In this document: positions 1,553 to 13,090 of the stretch, piece after piece
How the letters are laid out: every line of letters begins with the position of its first letter
Numbering within the stretch: position 1 is the first letter of the stretch
Origin: a virus
Taxonomy: Duplodnaviria; Heunggongvirae; Uroviricota; Caudoviricetes
Length of the DNA: 14,019 bases
IMG/VR virus record: IMGVR_UViG_2698536552_000015
Reading direction: 5' to 3' (one strand)
Program-made: the position numbers and the translations under genes
Notes under the pieces: generated by a model
The model's database searches: none
What the model was told of the DNA's origin: nothing
Seen by the model: only the letters and a program-made list of their open reading frames with translations

Positions 1553-1741
1553 TCACGAGGACTGAAGTTTCTCGCAATTAAAATTTATCAGTTTTACTTT
1601 CTGCTCTCTGGAAACGCCTGCTTCTTTTTTACCTGAGAGCATTTTTTCGCATTCTGATTTCGTTAGTTTAGATTTTGAATATCTTGTCCAGTTAGTAGGA
1701 GTGCCACCTTCCTTTTCAATAGTGGCGGTAATTTTATACAT
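1553..1741 (-). CDS. ydaC: Small Rac prophage protein YdaC/RcbA-like (62 aa)
   Basis: ATG at 1741 (MYKITATIEKEGGTPTNWTRYSKSKLTKSECEKMLSGKKEAGVSREQKVKLINFNCEKLQSS) inside ORF 1553..1813. The start overlaps the 3' end of the ralR frame by 8 nt. Confidence 0.7.
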   Translation of the reverse strand: MYKITATIEKEGGTPTNWTRYSKSKLTKSECEKMLSGKKEAGVSREQKVKLINFNCEKLQSS

Positions 1742-1928
1742 GAACACCTCCATTATTATTTCCAGTGGTTCGTTTATTTCATCGTTCGAGTGCTTCTTTT
1801 TCACTTCCACCATAACCGGTTCGGGATTCGCATCCGTTACACTTCGCTCGGTAATATCCTGAAATGGCTTTCACCGTTACTGATGGACAACCACAAAATG
1901 GACATGGTTTAACATTGTCATATCTCAT
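1734..1928 (-). pseudogene. ralR: ralR-like gene (restriction alleviation / type I toxin) with an in-frame TGA at codon 50; 49-aa product if terminated, 64 codons if read through
   Basis: Hand translation of the minus strand from ATG 1926-1928: MRYDNVKPCPFCGCPSVTVKAISGYYRAKCNGCESRTGYGGSEKEALER, then TGA (plus 1779-1781), then in frame NKRTTGNNNGGVHV and TAA at 1734-1736. Absent from the ORF track because it is under 60 aa. The in-frame tail matches the RalR C-terminus as I recall it. Confidence 0.55.
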
Positions 1929-1956
1929 AATTTTTCTCATAAAAATATTTCAAGTT

Positions 1957-8500: not shown

Positions 8501-8919
8501 AAATCAAGCATGAGCACATCGAGTCAGTGTTGTTAGCCCTGGCAGCCGAAAAAGGGCAGGCATGGGTAGCCAATGCCATTACTGAAGAATATCTGCGCCA
8601 GGGGGGCGGCGAATTGCCCCTGGTACCAGGCAAGGACTGGAATAATCAGCAGAATATCTATCACCGTTGGTTGAAAGGTGAAACGAAAACGCAAAGAGAA
8701 AAAATTCAGAAGCTGATCCCAGCAATTCTGGCAATCCTTCCGCGCGAGCTGCGTCACCGACTCTGCATCNNNNNNNNNNNNNNNNNNNNNNNNNNNNNNN
8801 NNNNNNNNNNNNNNNNNNNNNNNNNNNNNNNNNNNNNNNNNNNNNNNNNNNNNNNNNNNNNNNNNNNNNNNNNNNNNNNNNNNNNNNNNNNNNNNNNNNN
8901 NNNNNNNNNNNNNNNNNNN
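8497..8919 (+). CDS. ydaT: YdaT-like protein; N-terminal 91 codons visible (8497..8769), 3' end hidden in an N run (end inferred from a recalled length of about 140 aa)
   Basis: MKIKHEHIESVLLALAAEKGQAWVANAITEEYLRQGGGELPLVPGKDWNNQQNIYHRWLKGETKTQREKIQKLIPAILAILPRELRHRLCI then N run. GGGAG Shine-Dalgarno upstream. Confidence 0.7.
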
Positions 8920-9030
8920 NNNNNNNNNNNNNNNNNNNNNNNNNNNNNNNNNNNNNNNNNNNNNNNNNNNNNNNNNNNNNNNNNNNNNNNNNNNNNNNNN
9001 NNNNNNNNNNNNNNNNNNNNNNNNNNNNNN
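8770..9030. other. N-masked run (261 nt), no sequence information
   Basis: Run of n in the input; hides the ydaT 3' end and ydaU 5' end. Confidence 0.99.
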
Positions 9031-9814
9031 TACCTGGCTGACACCATGCATTTGTCAGCAGAGGAGCATGGTGCGTATTTGTTGCTGATGTTCAATTACT
9101 GGCAAACAGGAAAGCCAATACCTAAAAACAGGCTGGCAAAAATTGCCCGTCTGACTAACGAGCGATGGGCTGATGTTGAACCATCCTTGCAGGAGTTTTT
9201 TTGCGATAACGGCGAGGAATGGGTGCATCTTCGGATTGAGGAAGATCTGGCATCANNNNNNNNNNNNNNNNNNNNNNNNNNNNNNNNNNNNNNNNNNNNN
9301 NNNNNNNNNNNNNNNNNNNNNNNNNNNNNNNNNNNNNNNNNNNNNNNNNNNNNNNNNNNNNNNNNNNNNNNNNNNNNNNNNNNNNNNNNNNNNNNNNNNN
9401 NNNNNNNNNNNNNNNNNNNNNNNNNNNNNNNNNNNNNNNNNNNNNNNNNNNNNNNNNNNNNNNNNNNNNNNNNNNNNNNNNNNNNNNNNNNNNNNNNNNN
9501 NNNNNAAAAAGTTTGACCCTCTGGATATTGCTTTGCCGAACTGGATTTCTGTCTCGCTTTGGCGTGAGTGGGTTGAATTTCGCCAGGCATTGCGAAAACC
9601 GATTCGAACGGAGCAGGGCGCTAACGGGGCGATACGGGAGCTGGAAAAATTCCGCCAGCAGGGTTTTTCACCTGAGCAGGTGATTCGACACAGCATCGCC
9701 AATGAATACCAGGGCTTGTTCGCGCCGAAAGGTGTTCGACCTGAGACGTTACTCCGACAGGTTAACACCGTCTCGTTACCGGATAGTGCGATCCCGCCAG
9801 GCTTCAGGGGGTAA
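8957..9814 (+). CDS. ydaU: DUF1376-type replication-associated protein YdaU-like; start inferred inside an N run, interrupted by a second N run
   Basis: Visible segments: 9031-9255 YLADTMHLSAEEHGAYLLLMFNYWQTGKPIPKNRLAKIARLTNERWADVEPSLQEFFCDNGEEWVHLRIEEDLAS (DUF1376-like motif), and 9506-9814 KKFDPLDIALPNWISVSLWREWVEFRQALRKPIRTEQGANGAIRELEKFRQQGFSPEQVIRHSIANEYQGLF…PPGFRG*. The two segments are in different frames (+1 across the 250-nt N run). Confidence 0.65.
9256..9505. other. N-masked run (250 nt)
   Basis: Run of n in the input, inside ydaU. Confidence 0.99.
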
Positions 9815-9820
9815 CTGACC

Positions 9821-11022
9821 ATGAAAAATATTGCGACAGGCGACGTTCTTGAACGTATCCGCAGACTGGCCCCGTCACATGTAACCGCGCCATTCAAGAC
9901 GGTAGCGGAGTGGCGCGAGTGGCAACTTTCCGAAGGCCAGAAACGTTGTGAGGAGATCAACCGTCAGAATCGTCAGTTGCGGGTGGAAAAAATTCTGAAT
10001 CGCTCTGGCATCCAGCCATTGCACCGCAAATGCTCGTTTTCGAATTACCAGGTGCAGAACGAAGCGCAGCGATACGCGTTGAGTCAGGCGAAATCCATCG
10101 CTGATGAACTGATGACCGGGTGTACAAATTTTGCGTTCAGCGGAAAACCTGGTACCGGGAAGAACCACTTAGCGGCAGCTATCGGGAATCGCCTGCTGAA
10201 AGACGGTCAGACAGTGATTGTGGTTACCGTGGCTGATGTTATGAGTGNNNNNNNNNNNNNNNNNNNNNNNNNNNNNNNNNNNNNNNNNNNNNNNNNNNNN
10301 NNNNNNNNNNNNNNNNNNNNNNNNNNNNNNNNNNNNNNNNNNNNNNNNNNNNNNNNNNNNNNNNNNNNNNNNNNNNNNNNNNNNNNNNNNNNNNNNNNNN
10401 NNNNNNNNNNNNNNNNNNNNNNNNNNNNNNNNNNNNNNNNNNNNNNNNNNNNNNNNNNNNNNNNNNNNNNNNNNNNNNNNNNNNNNNNNNNNNNNNNNNN
10501 NGAACGACGGCCAGCGATACGCGTTAAGCCAGGCGAAATCCATCGCCGATGAACNNNNNNNNNNNNNNNNNNNNNNNNNNNNNNNNNNNNNNNNNNNNNN
10601 NNNNNNNNNNNNNNNNNNNNNNNNNNNNNNNNNNNNNNNNNNNNNNNNNNNNNNNNNNNNNNNNNNNNNNNNNNNNNNNNNNNNNNNNNNNNNNNNNNNN
10701 NNNNNNNNNNNNNNNNNNNNNNNNNNNNNNNNNNNNNNNNNNNNNNNNNNNNNNNNNNNNNNNNNNNNNNNNNNNNNNNNNNNNNNNNNNNNNNNNNNNN
10801 NNNNNNNNNNNNNNNNNNNNGGTGGTGCTGCACCAGATTGTTGATCGCCGGACAGCGTCGATGCGCAGCGTGGGGATGCTGACAAACCTGAACTATGAGG
10901 TGATGAAAACATTGCTCGGCGAGCGGGTGATGGATCGCATGGTCATGAACGGCGGGCGCTGGGTGAATTTTAACTGGGAGAGCTGGCGTCCGAATGTTAG
11001 CCATTCGAGGGTTGTTAAGTAG
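9821..11022 (+). CDS. ydaV: DnaC-like replication/helicase-loader protein YdaV region with an AAA+ Walker A motif; about 450 nt longer than expected and containing a diverged second copy of an internal segment (one enlarged gene, or a 5' fragment plus a second full copy)
   Basis: N-terminal 142 codons visible (9821-10246): MKNIATGDVLERIRRLAPSHVTAPFKTVAEW…FSGKPGTGKNHLAAAIGNRLLKDGQTVIVVTVADVMS. C-terminal segment 10822-11022: VVLHQIVDRRTASMRSVGMLTNLNYEVMKTLLGERVMDRMVMNGGRWVNFNWESWRPNVSHSRVVK*. The island 10502-10554 repeats residues around 79-96. Frames differ between segments (2, 3, 1). Confidence 0.7.
10248..10501. other. N-masked run (254 nt)
   Basis: Run of n in the input, inside the ydaV region. 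Confidence 0.99.
10555..10820. other. N-masked run (266 nt)
   Basis: Run of n in the input, inside the ydaV region. Confidence 0.99.
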
Positions 11023-11036
11023 TTTCAGGAGGATTT

Positions 11037-11459
11037 ATGGCGAAACCTTTTACTCCCGAACAGCGGGAAGAACTGAAGACGCGAATTGTGGAACTCGTGC
11101 ATCAGGACGGTCGGGTCACGATTCGGCAGTTGTCAGATGAAACAGGTATCAGTCGTGCGTCTGTCGGTCGCTTATGCATAGAACTGGTCGCAAGTGGTGA
11201 TGTATATAATTCTGGCTACGGCTTATTCCCGTCTGAACAGGCTCGCAAGGACTGGCAAAGCGCCCGCAAAAAACTCTCGAGAGTAAAGGTGAGGAAACCG
11301 GTTGTTGTTGATCCGGACCTTATCTGGTCATTACCTGACGGAGAAATACGCCGCTACGACAGGCGCCTGAATATAATCTGTCGCGAGTGCCGGAAGAGCG
11401 AAGCTATGCAGCGTGTACTGGCTTTCTATCAGGGTAATTTTCAGGAGGCGATACTGTGA
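11037..11459 (+). CDS. Hypothetical prophage protein (140 aa) with a predicted N-terminal winged helix-turn-helix
   Basis: ORF track 11037..11459; AGGAGG Shine-Dalgarno 4 nt upstream. The segment VTIRQLSDETGISRASVGRLCIELVASGDV looks like an HTH; a single CxxC (CRECRK) lies in the C-terminal half. Family not recognised with confidence. Confidence 0.6.
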   Translation: MAKPFTPEQREELKTRIVELVHQDGRVTIRQLSDETGISRASVGRLCIELVASGDVYNSGYGLFPSEQARKDWQSARKKLSRVKVRKPVVVDPDLIWSLPDGEIRRYDRRLNIICRECRKSEAMQRVLAFYQGNFQEAIL

Positions 11460-11516
11460 ATGAAATTAGCTATCAGGCTTCAATTACCGCTGGCATTCGC
11501 ATCAAAGGAGAGGAGC

Positions 11517-11873
11517 ATGGAAATAAAACCAGAAGATGAGTTAAGCAATATCGTTTTATTTCCGGTAAAAGAGGATGACCCTCGTAATCAGGTTAATTTT
11601 CTTTATGAGCCATCGGAAAGACCATATTGCCATCACGCCTCTGTACGGGTTGACGAAAAAGAGCGTCAGGTCCGCTGTAAAATCTGCGGTGCGGTTGTGG
11701 AGCCGTTTGACTGGATGCTCTCTGTGGCAAAAAGAGAAACCAGACTGGCAGATGATGTAAGGCTATTGCGCCAGGAGGAACAGGAAAGGCGGAGAAATAT
11801 AGAAAAGCTGATACAGATTGAGCGTAACGCGAAAGCGCGGATACGCAGGGCGACAAAATCCAGAACTGAATAA
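11517..11873 (+). CDS. Hypothetical small protein (118 aa) with a C-x15-CxxC zinc-ribbon-like motif and a basic coiled-coil tail; alternative start at 11460 (137 aa)
   Basis: ORF 11460..11873; internal ATG at 11517 has a strong AAGGAG Shine-Dalgarno with a 6-nt spacer. Motif YCHHASVRVDEKERQVRCKICG; C-terminus RLLRQEEQERRRNIEKLIQIERNAKARIRRATKSRTE. Confidence 0.55.
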   Translation: MEIKPEDELSNIVLFPVKEDDPRNQVNFLYEPSERPYCHHASVRVDEKERQVRCKICGAVVEPFDWMLSVAKRETRLADDVRLLRQEEQERRRNIEKLIQIERNAKARIRRATKSRTE

Positions 11874-12020: not shown

Positions 12021-12707
12021 ATGACCCCAATAAACATATTTATGACAGTTGCTGATTTCAAACGGCCCAAATTGGAGCTCCCAAACGGGGCAAACAAACT
12101 ACTACTGCACTCTTGCTGTGCTCCATGTTCCGGTGAGGTGATGGAGGCGCTTCAGGCCTCGGGAATCGACTACACCATCTTTTTCTACAACCCGAACATT
12201 CATCCTCAGAAAGAGTATTTAATTCGTAAGGATGAGAATATTCGCTTTGCTGAACAACACGGCGTGCCGTTTATTGATGCTGATTACGACACAGACAACT
12301 GGTTTGAACGAGCCAAAGGAATGGAATGGGAGCCCGAACGAGGGATCCGTTGCACCATGTGTTTTGACATGCGTTTTGAGCGGACAGCGCTGTACGCCGC
12401 TGAAAATGGTTTCAGTGTGATCAGCAGTTCACTGGGCATTTCACGCTGGAAAAATATGCAGCAGGTTAACGACTGTGGGCGGCGAGCCGTCGCGCATTAT
12501 CCGGGCATGGTGTACTGGGATTATAACTGGCGCAAGCAGGGCGGCTCGTCCCGTATGATTGAAATCAGCAAGCGCGAAAAATTCTATCAGCAGGAATATT
12601 GTGGCTGTGTGTATTCTCTGCGCGATACCAATCTACACCGCAAATCTCAGGGACGCCCTCTTATCAAAATTGGTCAACTCCACTACGGTAAAGAAGAGAA
12701 GGAGTGA
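12021..12707 (+). CDS. queH: QueH-like epoxyqueuosine reductase (DUF208 family), 228 aa
   Basis: ORF track 12021..12707. Motifs as I recall for QueH/DUF208: [23 protein letters not shown], and C-terminal YCGCVYSL. No obvious Shine-Dalgarno; the true start may be the ATG at 12042. Confidence 0.65.
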
Positions 12708-12758: not shown

Positions 12759-12819
12759 GACTGCGGGTGCTTGAGGCTATCTGCTTCAGGCATGAACACC
12801 AAAAGGCAGATAGAGAAAA

Positions 12820-12886
12820 GCCCCAGTTAACATTACGCGTCCGGCAAGACGCTTAACATTAATCTGAGGCCAATTTCATGCTTTGC
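12820..12886 (-). ncRNA. Candidate Sok-like antisense RNA overlapping the mok translation start (coordinates approximate)
   Basis: Minus-strand promoter-like hexamers TTGCCT (complement of 12916-12921), 17-nt spacer, TAACCT (complement of 12893-12898). Position relative to mok/hok matches the known hok/sok organisation. The 3' end is not defined. Confidence 0.25.
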
Positions 12887-13090
12887 ACATGTAGGTTAGC
12901 CTCTTACATGCCGAAAGGCAAGGAGAAGCAGGCTATGAAGCAGCAAAAGGCGATGTTAATCGCCCTGATCGTCATCTGTTTAACCGTCATAGTGACGGCA
13001 CTGGTAACGAGGAAAGACCTCTGTGAGGTACGAATCCGAACCGGCCAGACGGAGGTCGCTGTCTTCGTAGACTACGAATCCAGGAAGTAA
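12878..13090 (+). CDS. Mok-like reading frame (70 aa): in-frame N-terminal extension of hok, as in mokC/hokC
   Basis: ATG at 12878 in the same frame as hok (MLCTCRLASYMPKGKEKQA + Hok), the same arrangement as the chromosomal mokC/hokC pair as recalled. Confidence 0.5.
   Translation: MLCTCRLASYMPKGKEKQAMKQQKAMLIALIVICLTVIVTALVTRKDLCEVRIRTGQTEVAVFVDYESRK
12935..13090 (+). CDS. Hok/Gef-family type I toxin (51 aa), HokC/HokD-like membrane peptide
   Basis: MKQQKAMLIALIVICLTVIVTALVTRKDLCEVRIRTGQTEVAVFVDYESRK carries the family signature LVTRKDLCEV-IRTGQTEVAVF. AAGGAGAAG Shine-Dalgarno upstream. Confidence 0.9.
   Translation: MKQQKAMLIALIVICLTVIVTALVTRKDLCEVRIRTGQTEVAVFVDYESRK

What the first reader, a model, noticed from the sequence alone, without database searches (positions are those of the whole stretch)
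11037..11873. Uncharacterised two-gene cassette (winged-HTH protein plus zinc-ribbon/coiled-coil protein) between the replication and nin-like regions
Two tightly linked small genes (the stop of one abuts the next ORF; the second has a strong AAGGAG) sit where I recall K-12 Rac having different content. Protein 1 has a predicted wHTH and a lone CxxC; protein 2 has C-x15-CxxC and a highly charged helical tail (RRRNIEKLIQIERNAKARIRRATKSRTE). I do not recognise either family. Small DNA-binding plus zinc-ribbon pairs at this position in lambdoid phages are often regulatory or host-takeover/anti-defence cargo, so this is the best candidate in the window for an undescribed function; that interpretation is inference only.
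Basis: inference. Interest (0 to 1): 0.5.

Follow-up and report, generated by a model that had tools for sequence, protein, structure and literature searches.

The report
Ren-like gene plus unrelated zinc-ribbon gene
The two small genes are real, but they are not a dedicated pair: the first is a relative of the phage lambda Ren protein sitting in the usual ren position, and the second is a widespread phage zinc-ribbon protein of unknown function that moves between phage genomes on its own.

Summary
Both genes exist as described, in a Rac-like lambdoid prophage of E. coli/Shigella.

**Gene 1 (11037-11459, 140 aa)** belongs to a catalogued family.
- It matches Pfam DUF977 at 116 bits against a cut-off of 22, and PHROG 142 "Ren-like exclusion protein" at 2.7e-44. 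Lambda Ren falls in the same PHROG.
- It shares Ren's C-terminal motif and lies directly after the helicase-loader gene, as ren does.
- Its N-terminal 82 residues are a confident winged helix.

**Gene 2 (true start 11517, to 11873; 118 aa)** belongs to PHROG 1621, function unknown.
- The wider family has at least 1,619 cluster representatives.
- Its parts are an N-terminal acidic segment with a hydrophobic-x-Phe(-Pro) motif, a CxH-x13-CxxC zinc ribbon, and one long helix ending in ExNxKARxRR.
- No Pfam, NCBIfam, PADLOC, PDB or BFVD relative was found.

**Pairing is not conserved.**
- Near-identical gene 2 follows a DUF977 gene in about half of sampled prophages. In most of the rest it follows an ead/Ea22-like gene in the other early operon.
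- In Serratia, Yersinia and Erwinia tracheiphila it lies late in the nin region, just upstream of Q or a candidate Q gene.
- DUF977 DNA is in 3,617 of 5,426 complete E. coli genomes, and gene 2 in 1,679.

Verdict: two independent early-operon accessory genes. Ordinary overall; gene 2 remains a modest open question.

The parts
11037..11459 (+). Gene 1: Ren-family / DUF977 ('LygF') protein, 140 aa. It starts 14 nt after the stop of the ydaV-like DnaC-type helicase-loader gene (stop at 11022).
   Evidence: Pfam PF06163 at 1.1e-33, 116.5 bits against a cut-off of 22.1. PHROG 142 at 2.7e-44 over residues 1-139. RefSeq annotates 'DUF977 family protein' WP_001118169.1. Lambda Ren is in the same PHROG at 1.6e-41.
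11037..11282 (+). Winged helix-turn-helix domain of gene 1 (residues 1-82). Residues about 25-52, which include the recognition helix, are a mosaic and variable patch among alleles.
   Evidence: HTH_24 and HTH_IclR score above their Pfam cut-offs. AF2 pLDDT is 81-94 for residues 1-80. Foldseek finds GntR/IclR/MarR folds at probability 0.99-1.0. Allele comparison.
11364..11432 (+). C-terminal Ren signature of gene 1 (residues 110-132, RLNIICRECRKSEAMQRVLAFYQ).
   Evidence: BLASTP against lambda Ren residues 73-92 gives 60% identity, E 3e-7. hhalign gives probability 88.6%, E 2.6e-6. The stretch is nearly invariant among DUF977 alleles.
11460..11516 (+). Spacer between the genes. It is in frame with gene 2 and opens with an ATG, but is probably not translated. 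It contains the Shine-Dalgarno AAGGAG at 11505-11510.
   Evidence: Sequence. RefSeq start at 11517. Homologues start at the equivalent of 11517. Homology in Ea22 contexts starts only at about 11488. No promoter or terminator consensus on the + strand.
11517..11873 (+). Gene 2: 118-aa zinc-ribbon plus long-helix protein, PHROG 1621, function unknown.
   Evidence: PHROG 1621 at 5.1e-56. There are 148 close homologues in Enterobacterales, all named 'hypothetical' or 'bacteriophage protein'. A profile search finds 1,619 cluster representatives at E<=1e-3. RefSeq: WP_001343130.1.
11628..11687 (+). Predicted zinc ribbon of gene 2 (C38-x-H40-x13-C54-x2-C57).
   Evidence: C38, H40, C54 and C57 are invariant in A1. 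Across 106 distant members C38, C54 and C57 are invariant and H40 is at least 90% conserved. The CxH...CxxC pattern is found in 95 of 106, with x13 spacing in 84. The AF2 model has two beta-hairpin strands at 43-46 and 51-54. The TFIIB zinc-ribbon Pfam hit is weak: 21.5 bits, below the cut-off of 29.
11703..11867 (+). Single long helix of gene 2 (residues 63-117). Its basic end, NIEKLIQIERNAKARIRR, is invariant.
   Evidence: AF2 predicts helix 63-117 with pLDDT 81-94 for residues 71-110. Invariant columns are listed. Net charge is +8 for residues 91-118 against -5 for residues 1-35.

Best explanation
The interval holds two separate accessory genes of the early-right (pR-type) operon of a Rac-like lambdoid prophage. 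They are transcribed together with the replication genes, but they are not a functional unit.

**Gene 1** is the prophage's ren-equivalent. It is a Ren-family (DUF977) protein with an N-terminal winged helix. The recognition-helix region of that domain differs between alleles and tends to travel with the upstream replication module. Its C-terminal part is conserved and carries the Ren signature. By homology and position I infer that it acts like lambda Ren. That would make it an early protein working at or near the replication complex. It would keep the phage's own early development from being aborted by Rex-type exclusion systems of resident prophages, probably by protein contacts through the conserved C-terminal part. 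The winged helix would tether it to DNA or to the cognate replication module.

**Gene 2** is an independently mobile early gene. It encodes a small CHCC zinc-ribbon protein with an acidic N-terminal short motif and one long, very basic helix. I infer that it works as a self-associating adaptor made during lytic growth. In this view the basic helix end binds nucleic acid or a conserved machine, and the N-terminal motif binds something else. That makes it a host-takeover, counter-defence or regulatory accessory factor, not a partner of gene 1.

**Shown:** gene identity, family membership, domain anatomy, position, and lack of obligate pairing.
**Inferred:** both biochemical roles.
For: **Gene 1**
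- Family assignments.
- Lambda Ren is in the same PHROG and shares the C-terminal motif.
- The position after the loader gene is the same as lambda P-ren.
- The wHTH is supported.
- N-terminal residues 1-50 are 46-68% identical between alleles. For most alleles residues 51-140 stay 83-94% identical; one divergent allele group is only 56-64% identical there. The allele in this window always follows ydaV.
- A lambda study reports two-hybrid contacts between Rex proteins and O and Ren, and calls ren 'likely involved in DNA replication'.

**Co-transcription**
- No promoter or terminator consensus lies between ydaV, gene 1 and gene 2 on the + strand.

**Gene 2 independence**
- Of 81 evaluable IMG/VR copies, 43 follow DUF977, whose identity to this window's allele ranges from 55 to 100%.
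- About 34 sampled copies follow an ead/Ea22-like gene, with the start overlapping it by 22 nt.
- Serratia, Yersinia and Erwinia tracheiphila orthologues overlap RusA or NinH by 4 nt. Those of Serratia and Yersinia precede the Q antiterminator.
- Metagenomic relatives lie in arrays of small early genes with no constant neighbour.
- E. coli genome counts are 3,617 for DUF977, 1,679 for gene 2, and 824 for adjacency.

**Gene 2 anatomy:**
Against: - No experiment bears on either protein of this window.
- Similarity of gene 1 to lambda Ren in pairwise terms is limited to about 20-23 C-terminal residues. Gene 1 is 44 aa longer, with a low-confidence region at residues 84-110.
- The Ren mechanism itself is unknown.
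- No rexAB-like target was looked for in this genome.
- For gene 2, neither structure nor profile searches give any functional relative. The adaptor / nucleic-acid-binding idea rests on composition and conservation only.
- The hydrophobic seam of the helix is weak in the middle, so self-association is not assured.
- About half of E. coli-type gene 2 copies do sit next to DUF977. A loose functional link cannot be excluded.
Confidence: 0.7

Rival explanations
1. The two genes form a dedicated functional cassette. For example, a wHTH regulator or antitoxin could control or neutralise a zinc-ribbon effector, or the two could form a two-component anti-defence module.
For: They are adjacent and co-oriented with no intervening signals. 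Adjacency recurs in 43 of 81 sampled viral contigs and in at least 824 E. coli genomes.
Against: - Gene 2 at 97-100% identity is found behind DUF977 alleles of 55-100% identity and behind unrelated Ea22-like genes.
- None of the orthologues examined in other genera has DUF977 directly upstream.
- Most DUF977 genes lack gene 2.
- There is no promoter of their own and no PADLOC match.
Confidence: 0.08
2. Gene 2 encodes a transcription factor-like protein. Its TFIIB-type zinc ribbon and basic helix would contact RNA polymerase or nucleic acid to modulate the early-to-late transition together with Q.
For: - Weak TFIIB zinc-ribbon similarity occurs in 15 of 106 family members and in the query. The best structural hit is the TFIIB N-terminal ribbon.
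- Orthologues in Serratia and Yersinia lie just upstream of the Q antiterminator. The Erwinia and Photorhabdus orthologues precede an unannotated gene that may be Q.
- The C-terminal helix is strongly basic.
Against: - All similarity scores are below threshold: 21.5 bits against a cut-off of 29, and Foldseek E 0.36.
- In E. coli the gene lies far from Q, at the start of the nin region or in the pL-side ea region.
- Neighbourhood in mosaic phage genomes is weak evidence of function.
Confidence: 0.15
3. Gene 2 is a counter-defence or host-takeover inhibitor. It would dock onto a conserved host protein through its N-terminal acidic hydrophobic-x-Phe-Pro motif.
For: - It is located in the two classical accessory-gene zones of lambdoid phages and is exchanged freely.
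- The family spans at least 1,619 cluster representatives.
- The N-terminal motif is present in 19 of 95 members in strict form, against 0.34 expected from shuffles, and in looser form in many more.
- Some prophages carry a second, divergent copy (L055, L056, L077).
Against: There is no similarity to any known anti-defence protein and no experimental hint. The motif region is low-confidence in the model, with pLDDT 54-57.
Confidence: 0.25
4. Gene 1 is primarily a replication-module accessory DNA-binding protein, with specificity matched to the origin or initiator, rather than an anti-exclusion factor. Any Rex phenotype would be secondary.
For: - It lies immediately after the initiator/loader genes in every locus examined.
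- The HTH recognition region varies and partly co-segregates with the upstream module.
- A lambda paper describes ren as likely involved in replication and reports contacts between the Rex proteins and O and Ren.
Against: - One HTH allele (EAKTGATRYLMSVLAREL) occurs behind two different upstream genes. The co-segregation may therefore be mere linkage.
- Lambda ren is dispensable for replication-dependent killing phenotypes.
Confidence: 0.3

Closest known systems
Bacteriophage lambda Ren (NP_040633, 96 aa)
   Same: It is in the same PHROG (142). It has the same slot directly after the helicase-loader gene in the pR operon. It has the same N-terminal winged-helix-type region and the same C-terminal motif N-[IL]-[IV]-x-x-E-C-R-x-S-x-A-M-x-R-V-L-A-x-Y.
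   Different: Gene 1 is 44 aa longer, with an extra and highly conserved middle segment (residues about 55-110). Pairwise similarity is significant only over the last 20-23 residues. Lambda Ren does not reach the Pfam DUF977 model. The first Cys of the CxxC is absent from Ren. The Rex-related phenotype has not been tested for any DUF977 protein as far as I could find.
Pfam DUF977 (PF06163) / 'LygF' of the Salmonella Enteritidis Sdr I region
   Same: It is a full-length member: 1-136 of the protein matches 1-134 of the model at 116.5 bits. Phage records annotate close relatives as LygF.
   Different: None at the family level. The family has no demonstrated function. Its only description found here is as a winged-helix domain that is sometimes fused to Fic domains. 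LygF is only a locus name.
E. coli K-12 Rac YdaW (DUF1627, PHROG 630)
   Same: It occupies the same position after ydaV in K-12 Rac and also has an N-terminal winged helix.
   Different: It is a different family: BLASTP E 0.054, over the HTH only. In other prophages DUF1627 and DUF977 genes occur side by side. The reported ydaW hit as a retron-toxin blocker therefore must not be transferred to gene 1.
PHROG 1621 (with 8538 and 4865), phage proteins of unknown function
   Same: Gene 2 matches PHROG 1621 over its whole length at 5.1e-56. All 106 distant relatives tested also match it.
   Different: Nothing is known about these PHROGs, so this is a label, not a function.
TFIIB-type zinc ribbons (Pfam PF08271)
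   Same: Both have a small two-hairpin zinc ribbon with a CxxC knuckle. This is the best, though weak, sequence and fold match.
   Different: The score is below the Pfam cut-off. The first knuckle is CxH rather than CxxC. There is no cyclin-fold core, and instead one long basic helix. Gene 2 is not a member.
ead/Ea22-like proteins of the lambdoid exo-xis region
   Same: Gene 2 is frequently the next gene, overlapping the stop of an Ea22-like gene. Rare in-frame Ea22::gene 2 fusions exist. Ea22 is a modular coiled-coil early protein reported to favour lysogeny.
   Different: There is no sequence similarity between gene 2 and Ea22 domains. In this window there is no Ea22-like gene near gene 2.

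Membership tests
Pfam DUF977 (PF06163) | Whole-protein score above the curated gathering threshold, with full-length coverage of the model | tested here: met
   116.5 bits against a cut-off of 22.1; residues 1-136 match model positions 1-134 of 134. RefSeq also names it a DUF977 family protein.
Lambda Ren family (PHROG 142, 'Ren-like exclusion protein') | Profile membership together with lambda Ren itself | tested here: met
   Gene 1 scores 2.7e-44 over 1-139. Lambda Ren scores 1.6e-41 over 1-95.
Lambda Ren family (PHROG 142, 'Ren-like exclusion protein') | Direct sequence similarity to lambda Ren | tested here: inconclusive
   Only the C-terminal 20-23 residues align: BLASTP E 3e-7 at 60% identity, hhalign probability 88.6%. 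The N-terminal HTH parts do not align pairwise.
Lambda Ren family (PHROG 142, 'Ren-like exclusion protein') | Gene position directly downstream of the replication initiator/loader genes in the pR operon | tested here: met
   The ydaV-like gene ends at 11022 and gene 1 starts at 11037. In lambda the order is P (39582-40283), then ren (40280-40570).
Lambda Ren family (PHROG 142, 'Ren-like exclusion protein') | Confers resistance to Rex-dependent exclusion (the phenotype that defines ren) | not testable with these tools
   Needs plating of ren-minus phage complemented with gene 1 on Rex+ lysogens. The phenotype for lambda is from my own knowledge of Toothman and Herskowitz 1980. The papers held here report Ren-Rex two-hybrid contacts.
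PHROG 1621 (gene 2) | Full-length profile match | tested here: met
   5.1e-56; residues 20-136 of the 137-aa ORF match model positions 1-120 of 134. The 118-aa form scores 3e-56.
TFIIB zinc ribbon (PF08271) | Score above the gathering threshold and a four-Cys ribbon | tested here: not met
   21.1-21.5 bits against a cut-off of 29. The ligand set is C-H-C-C. The Foldseek best hit is 1pft at E 0.36.
Named nin-region proteins (NinB, NinD-H, RusA, YbcO, Rap/NinG) | Pfam or PHROG match of either protein to a named Nin family | tested here: not met
   There are no such matches. In Serratia and Yersinia, gene 2 orthologues are neighbours of NinE/NinF/YbcO/RusA/NinG/NinH genes but are distinct from them.
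Toxin-antitoxin or defence/anti-defence two-gene module | Conserved co-occurrence of the two genes, and a match to known module components | tested here: not met
   Pairing is absent in about half of close copies and in all distant copies examined. PADLOC gives no hit for gene 2 and only sub-threshold HTH noise for gene 1.
K-12 YdaW family (DUF1627) | Pfam DUF1627 match | tested here: not met
   Gene 1 has no DUF1627 hit. K-12 YdaW has one at 3.6e-34 and has no DUF977 hit.

The most novel reading that the evidence does not exclude
Gene 2 would represent a large, unnamed superfamily of phage early proteins, with at least 1,619 sequence clusters. Members share an N-terminal acidic hydrophobic-x-Phe(-Pro) docking motif, a CxH-x13-CxxC zinc ribbon, and a long helix ending in ExNxKARxRR. 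In this reading the family targets one conserved host machine, such as RNA polymerase, the replisome or a defence hub. That would make it a new class of host-takeover or counter-defence factor.
Probability: 0.12. Interest if true: 0.55.

Novelty: new member of a known kind. Interest (0 to 1): 0.25.

Why it matters
This result mainly tidies up annotation. The "cassette" is a ren-type gene in its normal place, plus a free-moving early gene.

Two modest points could be followed up:
- DUF977 is present in about two-thirds of complete E. coli genomes. It is linked here to the genetically defined but mechanistically unsolved Ren/Rex story. Its two-part build, with a variable HTH patch and a near-invariant C-terminal part, gives concrete hypotheses for how Ren-type proteins work.
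- Gene 2 belongs to a large phage family with sharply conserved motifs and no known function. It is a reasonable candidate for screens of host-takeover or anti-defence genes.

Neither point is surprising to a phage specialist.

Tried and rejected
- **My own recollection that K-12 YdaW is DUF977.** Tested and rejected: YdaW is DUF1627 / PHROG 630. The published ydaW retron-blocker hit was therefore not used for gene 1.
- **Function for gene 2 by sequence or structure.** All of these were empty or below threshold:
  - Pfam, NCBIfam and PADLOC
  - PDB sequence profile
  - Foldseek against PDB and BFVD
  - Pfam scan of 106 distant relatives
  - The afdb50 library was not available.
- **Phage-record annotations of gene 2.** All read "hypothetical protein".
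- **Solved structure for gene 1.** Only sub-threshold winged-helix hits, including Z-alpha domains at E 0.09. I read these as generic wHTH similarity.
- **Own promoter or terminator around the genes.** None on the coding strand.
- **Structured RNA in the interval.** None; Rfam hits in the window lie elsewhere.
- **Loci search with the broad alignment A2.** Failed, because no conserved stretch was long enough.
- **Thomason and Court 2022 paper on Ren.** Not held in the library.
- **Literature searches for DUF977, PF06163, LygF and 'Ren-like exclusion protein'.** No functional study found.
- **bZIP-like reading of the basic helix.** Considered by eye and dropped: the basic segment is C-terminal to the helix rather than N-terminal, and the PROSITE-type pattern is not met.
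Full report
**Context.** The window is a Rac-like lambdoid prophage.
- On the minus strand lie an integrase, recT, recE and a racR-type repressor.
- On the plus strand lie cro/ydaS-, ydaT-, ydaU- and ydaV-like genes. These are partly N-masked.
- The two genes in question follow, then queH and the hok/sok module.
- The nearest complete genome (99.8% identical) is annotated with the same order: ydaV, DUF977 family protein, hypothetical protein, QueH, HokD.

**Checking the observation.** The ORFs, the abutting TGA-ATG, the AAGGAG, the wHTH, the CxxC, the C-x15-CxxC and the basic tail are all present.

The start of gene 2 needs correcting to ATG 11517, giving 118 aa. That codon lies 6 nt after AAGGAG (11505-11510).
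- RefSeq uses this start.
- Orthologues from Klebsiella, Serratia, Yersinia and Erwinia begin there.
- In genomes where gene 2 sits in another context, DNA homology starts only at about 11488.
- The genes are therefore separated by 57 nt.

No sigma-70-like promoter or intrinsic terminator is predicted on the coding strand between the end of ydaV and queH. This fits co-transcription with the replication genes.

K-12 Rac does differ here. After ydaV it has ydaW, then the rzpR remnant.

**Gene 1 is a Ren-family protein.**
- It is a full-length member of Pfam DUF977, at 116.5 bits against a cut-off of 22.1.
- It is a member of PHROG 142 "Ren-like exclusion protein", at 2.7e-44.
- Lambda Ren, fetched from NC_001416, falls into the same PHROG at 1.6e-41. 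It does not reach the DUF977 model.
- Directly compared, the two proteins share only the C-terminal motif: NIICRECRKSEAMQRVLAFY against NLVFKECRQSAAMKRVLAVY. BLASTP gives E 3e-7 and hhalign gives probability 88.6%.
- The gene position is the ren position, immediately after the helicase-loader gene.
- AlphaFold2 gives a confident winged helix for residues 1-82 and low confidence for 84-140. Foldseek finds only generic GntR/IclR/MarR-type winged helices.

The name LygF used in phage records is only a locus label from the Salmonella Enteritidis Sdr I region. The one paper mentioning DUF977 describes it as a winged-helix domain sometimes fused to Fic.

I had recalled K-12 YdaW as DUF977, and that recollection is wrong. 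YdaW is a DUF1627 / PHROG 630 fragment. The reported ydaW hit as a retron-toxin blocker therefore does not apply to gene 1.

**Allele structure of gene 1.** DUF977 DNA occurs in 3,617 of 5,426 complete E. coli genomes. Only 87 of them match this window's allele over at least 80% of the gene, and most matches start at nucleotide 141-144 of the gene.

Protein alignments show a variable patch at residues about 25-52. This patch includes the recognition helix. For most alleles the rest of the protein is nearly invariant.

In 48 loci the N-terminal 50 residues are 46-68% identical between allele groups. Residues 51-140 stay 83-94% identical in most groups. One divergent group (the ERATGAG allele) is only 56-64% identical there. 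This window's allele always follows ydaV. Other alleles follow DUF1627 genes or other replication genes, and one allele follows two different upstream genes.

So a recombination joint lies inside the gene. The HTH part travels largely with the replication module. This may be mere linkage, or it may reflect matched specificity.

**Gene 2 belongs to a large unnamed family.**
- It matches PHROG 1621, function unknown, at 5.1e-56.
- Its only Pfam similarity is a sub-threshold TFIIB zinc ribbon. It has no NCBIfam or PADLOC match.
- Close homologues are confined to Enterobacterales. All are named hypothetical or bacteriophage protein.
- A profile search of 1.84 billion representatives finds 1,619 at E<=1e-3 and 267 at E<=1e-10. 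Most are 100-185 aa.
- All 106 distant relatives tested fall into PHROGs 1621, 8538 and 4865, and into no Pfam family.

The family has four shared parts:
- An acidic N-terminus with an [IVL][IVL]x[FL](P) motif. The strict form occurs in 19 of 95 members, against 0.34 expected from shuffles. Looser forms occur in many more.
- CxH-x13-CxxC, found in 95 of 106 members, with x13 spacing in 84.
- A DPFD turn.
- One long helix ending in ExNxKARxRR. In the Enterobacterales subgroup the stretch NIEKLIQIERNAKARIRR is essentially invariant.

AlphaFold2 (pLDDT 75) predicts a small ribbon and a 55-residue helix. Foldseek against PDB and BFVD, and a PDB profile search, give nothing significant.

**The pair is not conserved.** In IMG/VR contigs carrying gene 2 at 97-100% identity, 43 of 81 evaluable copies have a DUF977 gene 58 nt upstream. 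Those DUF977 genes are only 55-100% identical to gene 1. About 34 sampled copies have an ead/Ea22-like gene whose end overlaps the gene 2 start by 22 nt. This is the arrangement in Stx2a phages such as ArgO145, in the early-left region. Rare in-frame Ea22::gene 2 fusions exist.

Orthologues in other genera have different neighbours:

| Genus or source | Upstream of gene 2 | Downstream of gene 2 |
|---|---|---|
| Serratia | RusA (4-nt overlap) | Q antiterminator |
| Yersinia | NinH (4-nt overlap) | a 75-aa gene, then Q |
| Erwinia, Photorhabdus, Pantoea, Kluyvera | genes I read as HNH-, RusA-, Dam-, primase- or NinG-like | unannotated ORFs, possibly Q |
| Metagenomic relatives | small early genes, no constant neighbour | same |

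In complete E. coli genomes gene 2 occurs in 1,679 genomes (2,135 places) and DUF977 in 3,617 genomes (5,014 places). The combined query is covered at 80% or more in 824 genomes.

**Mechanism.** For gene 1 the best-supported reading is "works like lambda Ren". From established knowledge (Toothman and Herskowitz 1980; my own knowledge, not retrieved here), ren-minus lambda is sensitive to Rex exclusion. A lambda study held in the library reports two-hybrid contacts between Rex proteins and O and Ren, and calls ren likely involved in replication. [quoted passage not shown]

I infer that the conserved C-terminal part makes the protein contacts. The variable winged helix would tether the protein to DNA or to the cognate replication module. 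This is inference.

For gene 2 I can only commit to a class. It is a zinc-stabilised, probably self-associating early protein. Its basic helix end would bind nucleic acid or a conserved machine. Its N-terminal motif would dock a second partner. It is made during lytic growth, because it lies in pR- or pL-type operons and is often translationally coupled to its neighbours. Rival readings are listed with tests: a Q-linked transcription factor, a counter-defence inhibitor, or a true partner of gene 1.

**Verdict.** The finding is real at the sequence level, but its interpretation as an undescribed cassette does not hold. Gene 1 is a new member of a known kind (Ren / DUF977). Gene 2 is a member of a catalogued but uncharacterised phage family. 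Interest is low to modest.

Noticed in passing
window 12021-12707 (+): An epoxyqueuosine reductase QueH gene (DUF208-type; RefSeq start equivalent to 12042) sits inside the prophage directly after gene 2. It replaces the usual nin genes. A tRNA-modification enzyme carried as prophage cargo is unusual enough to note. In the sampled loci this arrangement occurs only with the ydaV/100%-allele group.
   Followed up: partly
window 12765-13090 (+): A hok/sok type I toxin-antitoxin module. The Rfam sok match is at 12765-12940 (117 bits). A hokD-like ORF lies at 12878-13090.
   Followed up: partly
window 1553-1940: A RalR/RalA type I toxin-antitoxin. The Rfam RalA match is at 1557-1735 (+), 225 bits, opposite the ORF at 1553-1813 (-). 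A Lar-like (restriction alleviation) zinc-ribbon ORF lies at 1779-1940 (-).
   Followed up: no
window about 8770-9030, 9250-9510, 10245-10500, 10555-10820: Long runs of N mask parts of the ydaU- and ydaV-like replication genes. Their sequence could only be read from the near-identical locus L001.
   Followed up: partly
window 11037-11190 (gene 1 residues 1-50); loci L030-L096: A recombination joint lies inside the DUF977 gene at about nt 141-144. There are at least four HTH recognition-helix alleles: SDETGISRASVGRLCIEL, SDEIGVSHASVGRLCMEL, EAKTGATRYLMSVLAREL and ERATGAGWHSVRRCLVDV. For most of them the C-terminal two-thirds stays nearly invariant. Only 87 of 5,426 E. coli genomes carry this window's allele.
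   Followed up: yes
P0002 (202 aa), P0242 (256 aa); L002 3017-4385: Natural in-frame fusions of an ead/Ea22-like N-terminal coiled-coil protein to the whole of gene 2. In Stx2a phages the gene 2 start overlaps the Ea22-like stop by 22 nt. Gene 2 can therefore behave as a C-terminal module of Ea22-type proteins.
   Followed up: partly
L055 4976-5302, L056 6793-7125, L077 5059-5304: Some prophages carry a second, very divergent copy of the gene 2 family (24-29% identity) 1-3 kb downstream of the first.
   Followed up: no
L004 6753-7313 (E. coli K-12 ydaW): K-12 YdaW matches only the first 64 of 155 positions of Pfam DUF1627 and is followed directly by the rzpR remnant. This suggests that a deletion removed the rest of the early-right region in K-12 Rac, including any DUF977 gene. 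In Salmonella and other E. coli prophages DUF1627 and DUF977 genes are adjacent.
   Followed up: partly
L033 and L044 (IMG/VR contigs): Two near-identical copies of gene 2 (99% and 97%) lie about 1.7 kb apart in the same contig, each behind an Ea22-like gene. This is a tandem duplication of an Ea22-gene 2 unit.
   Followed up: no
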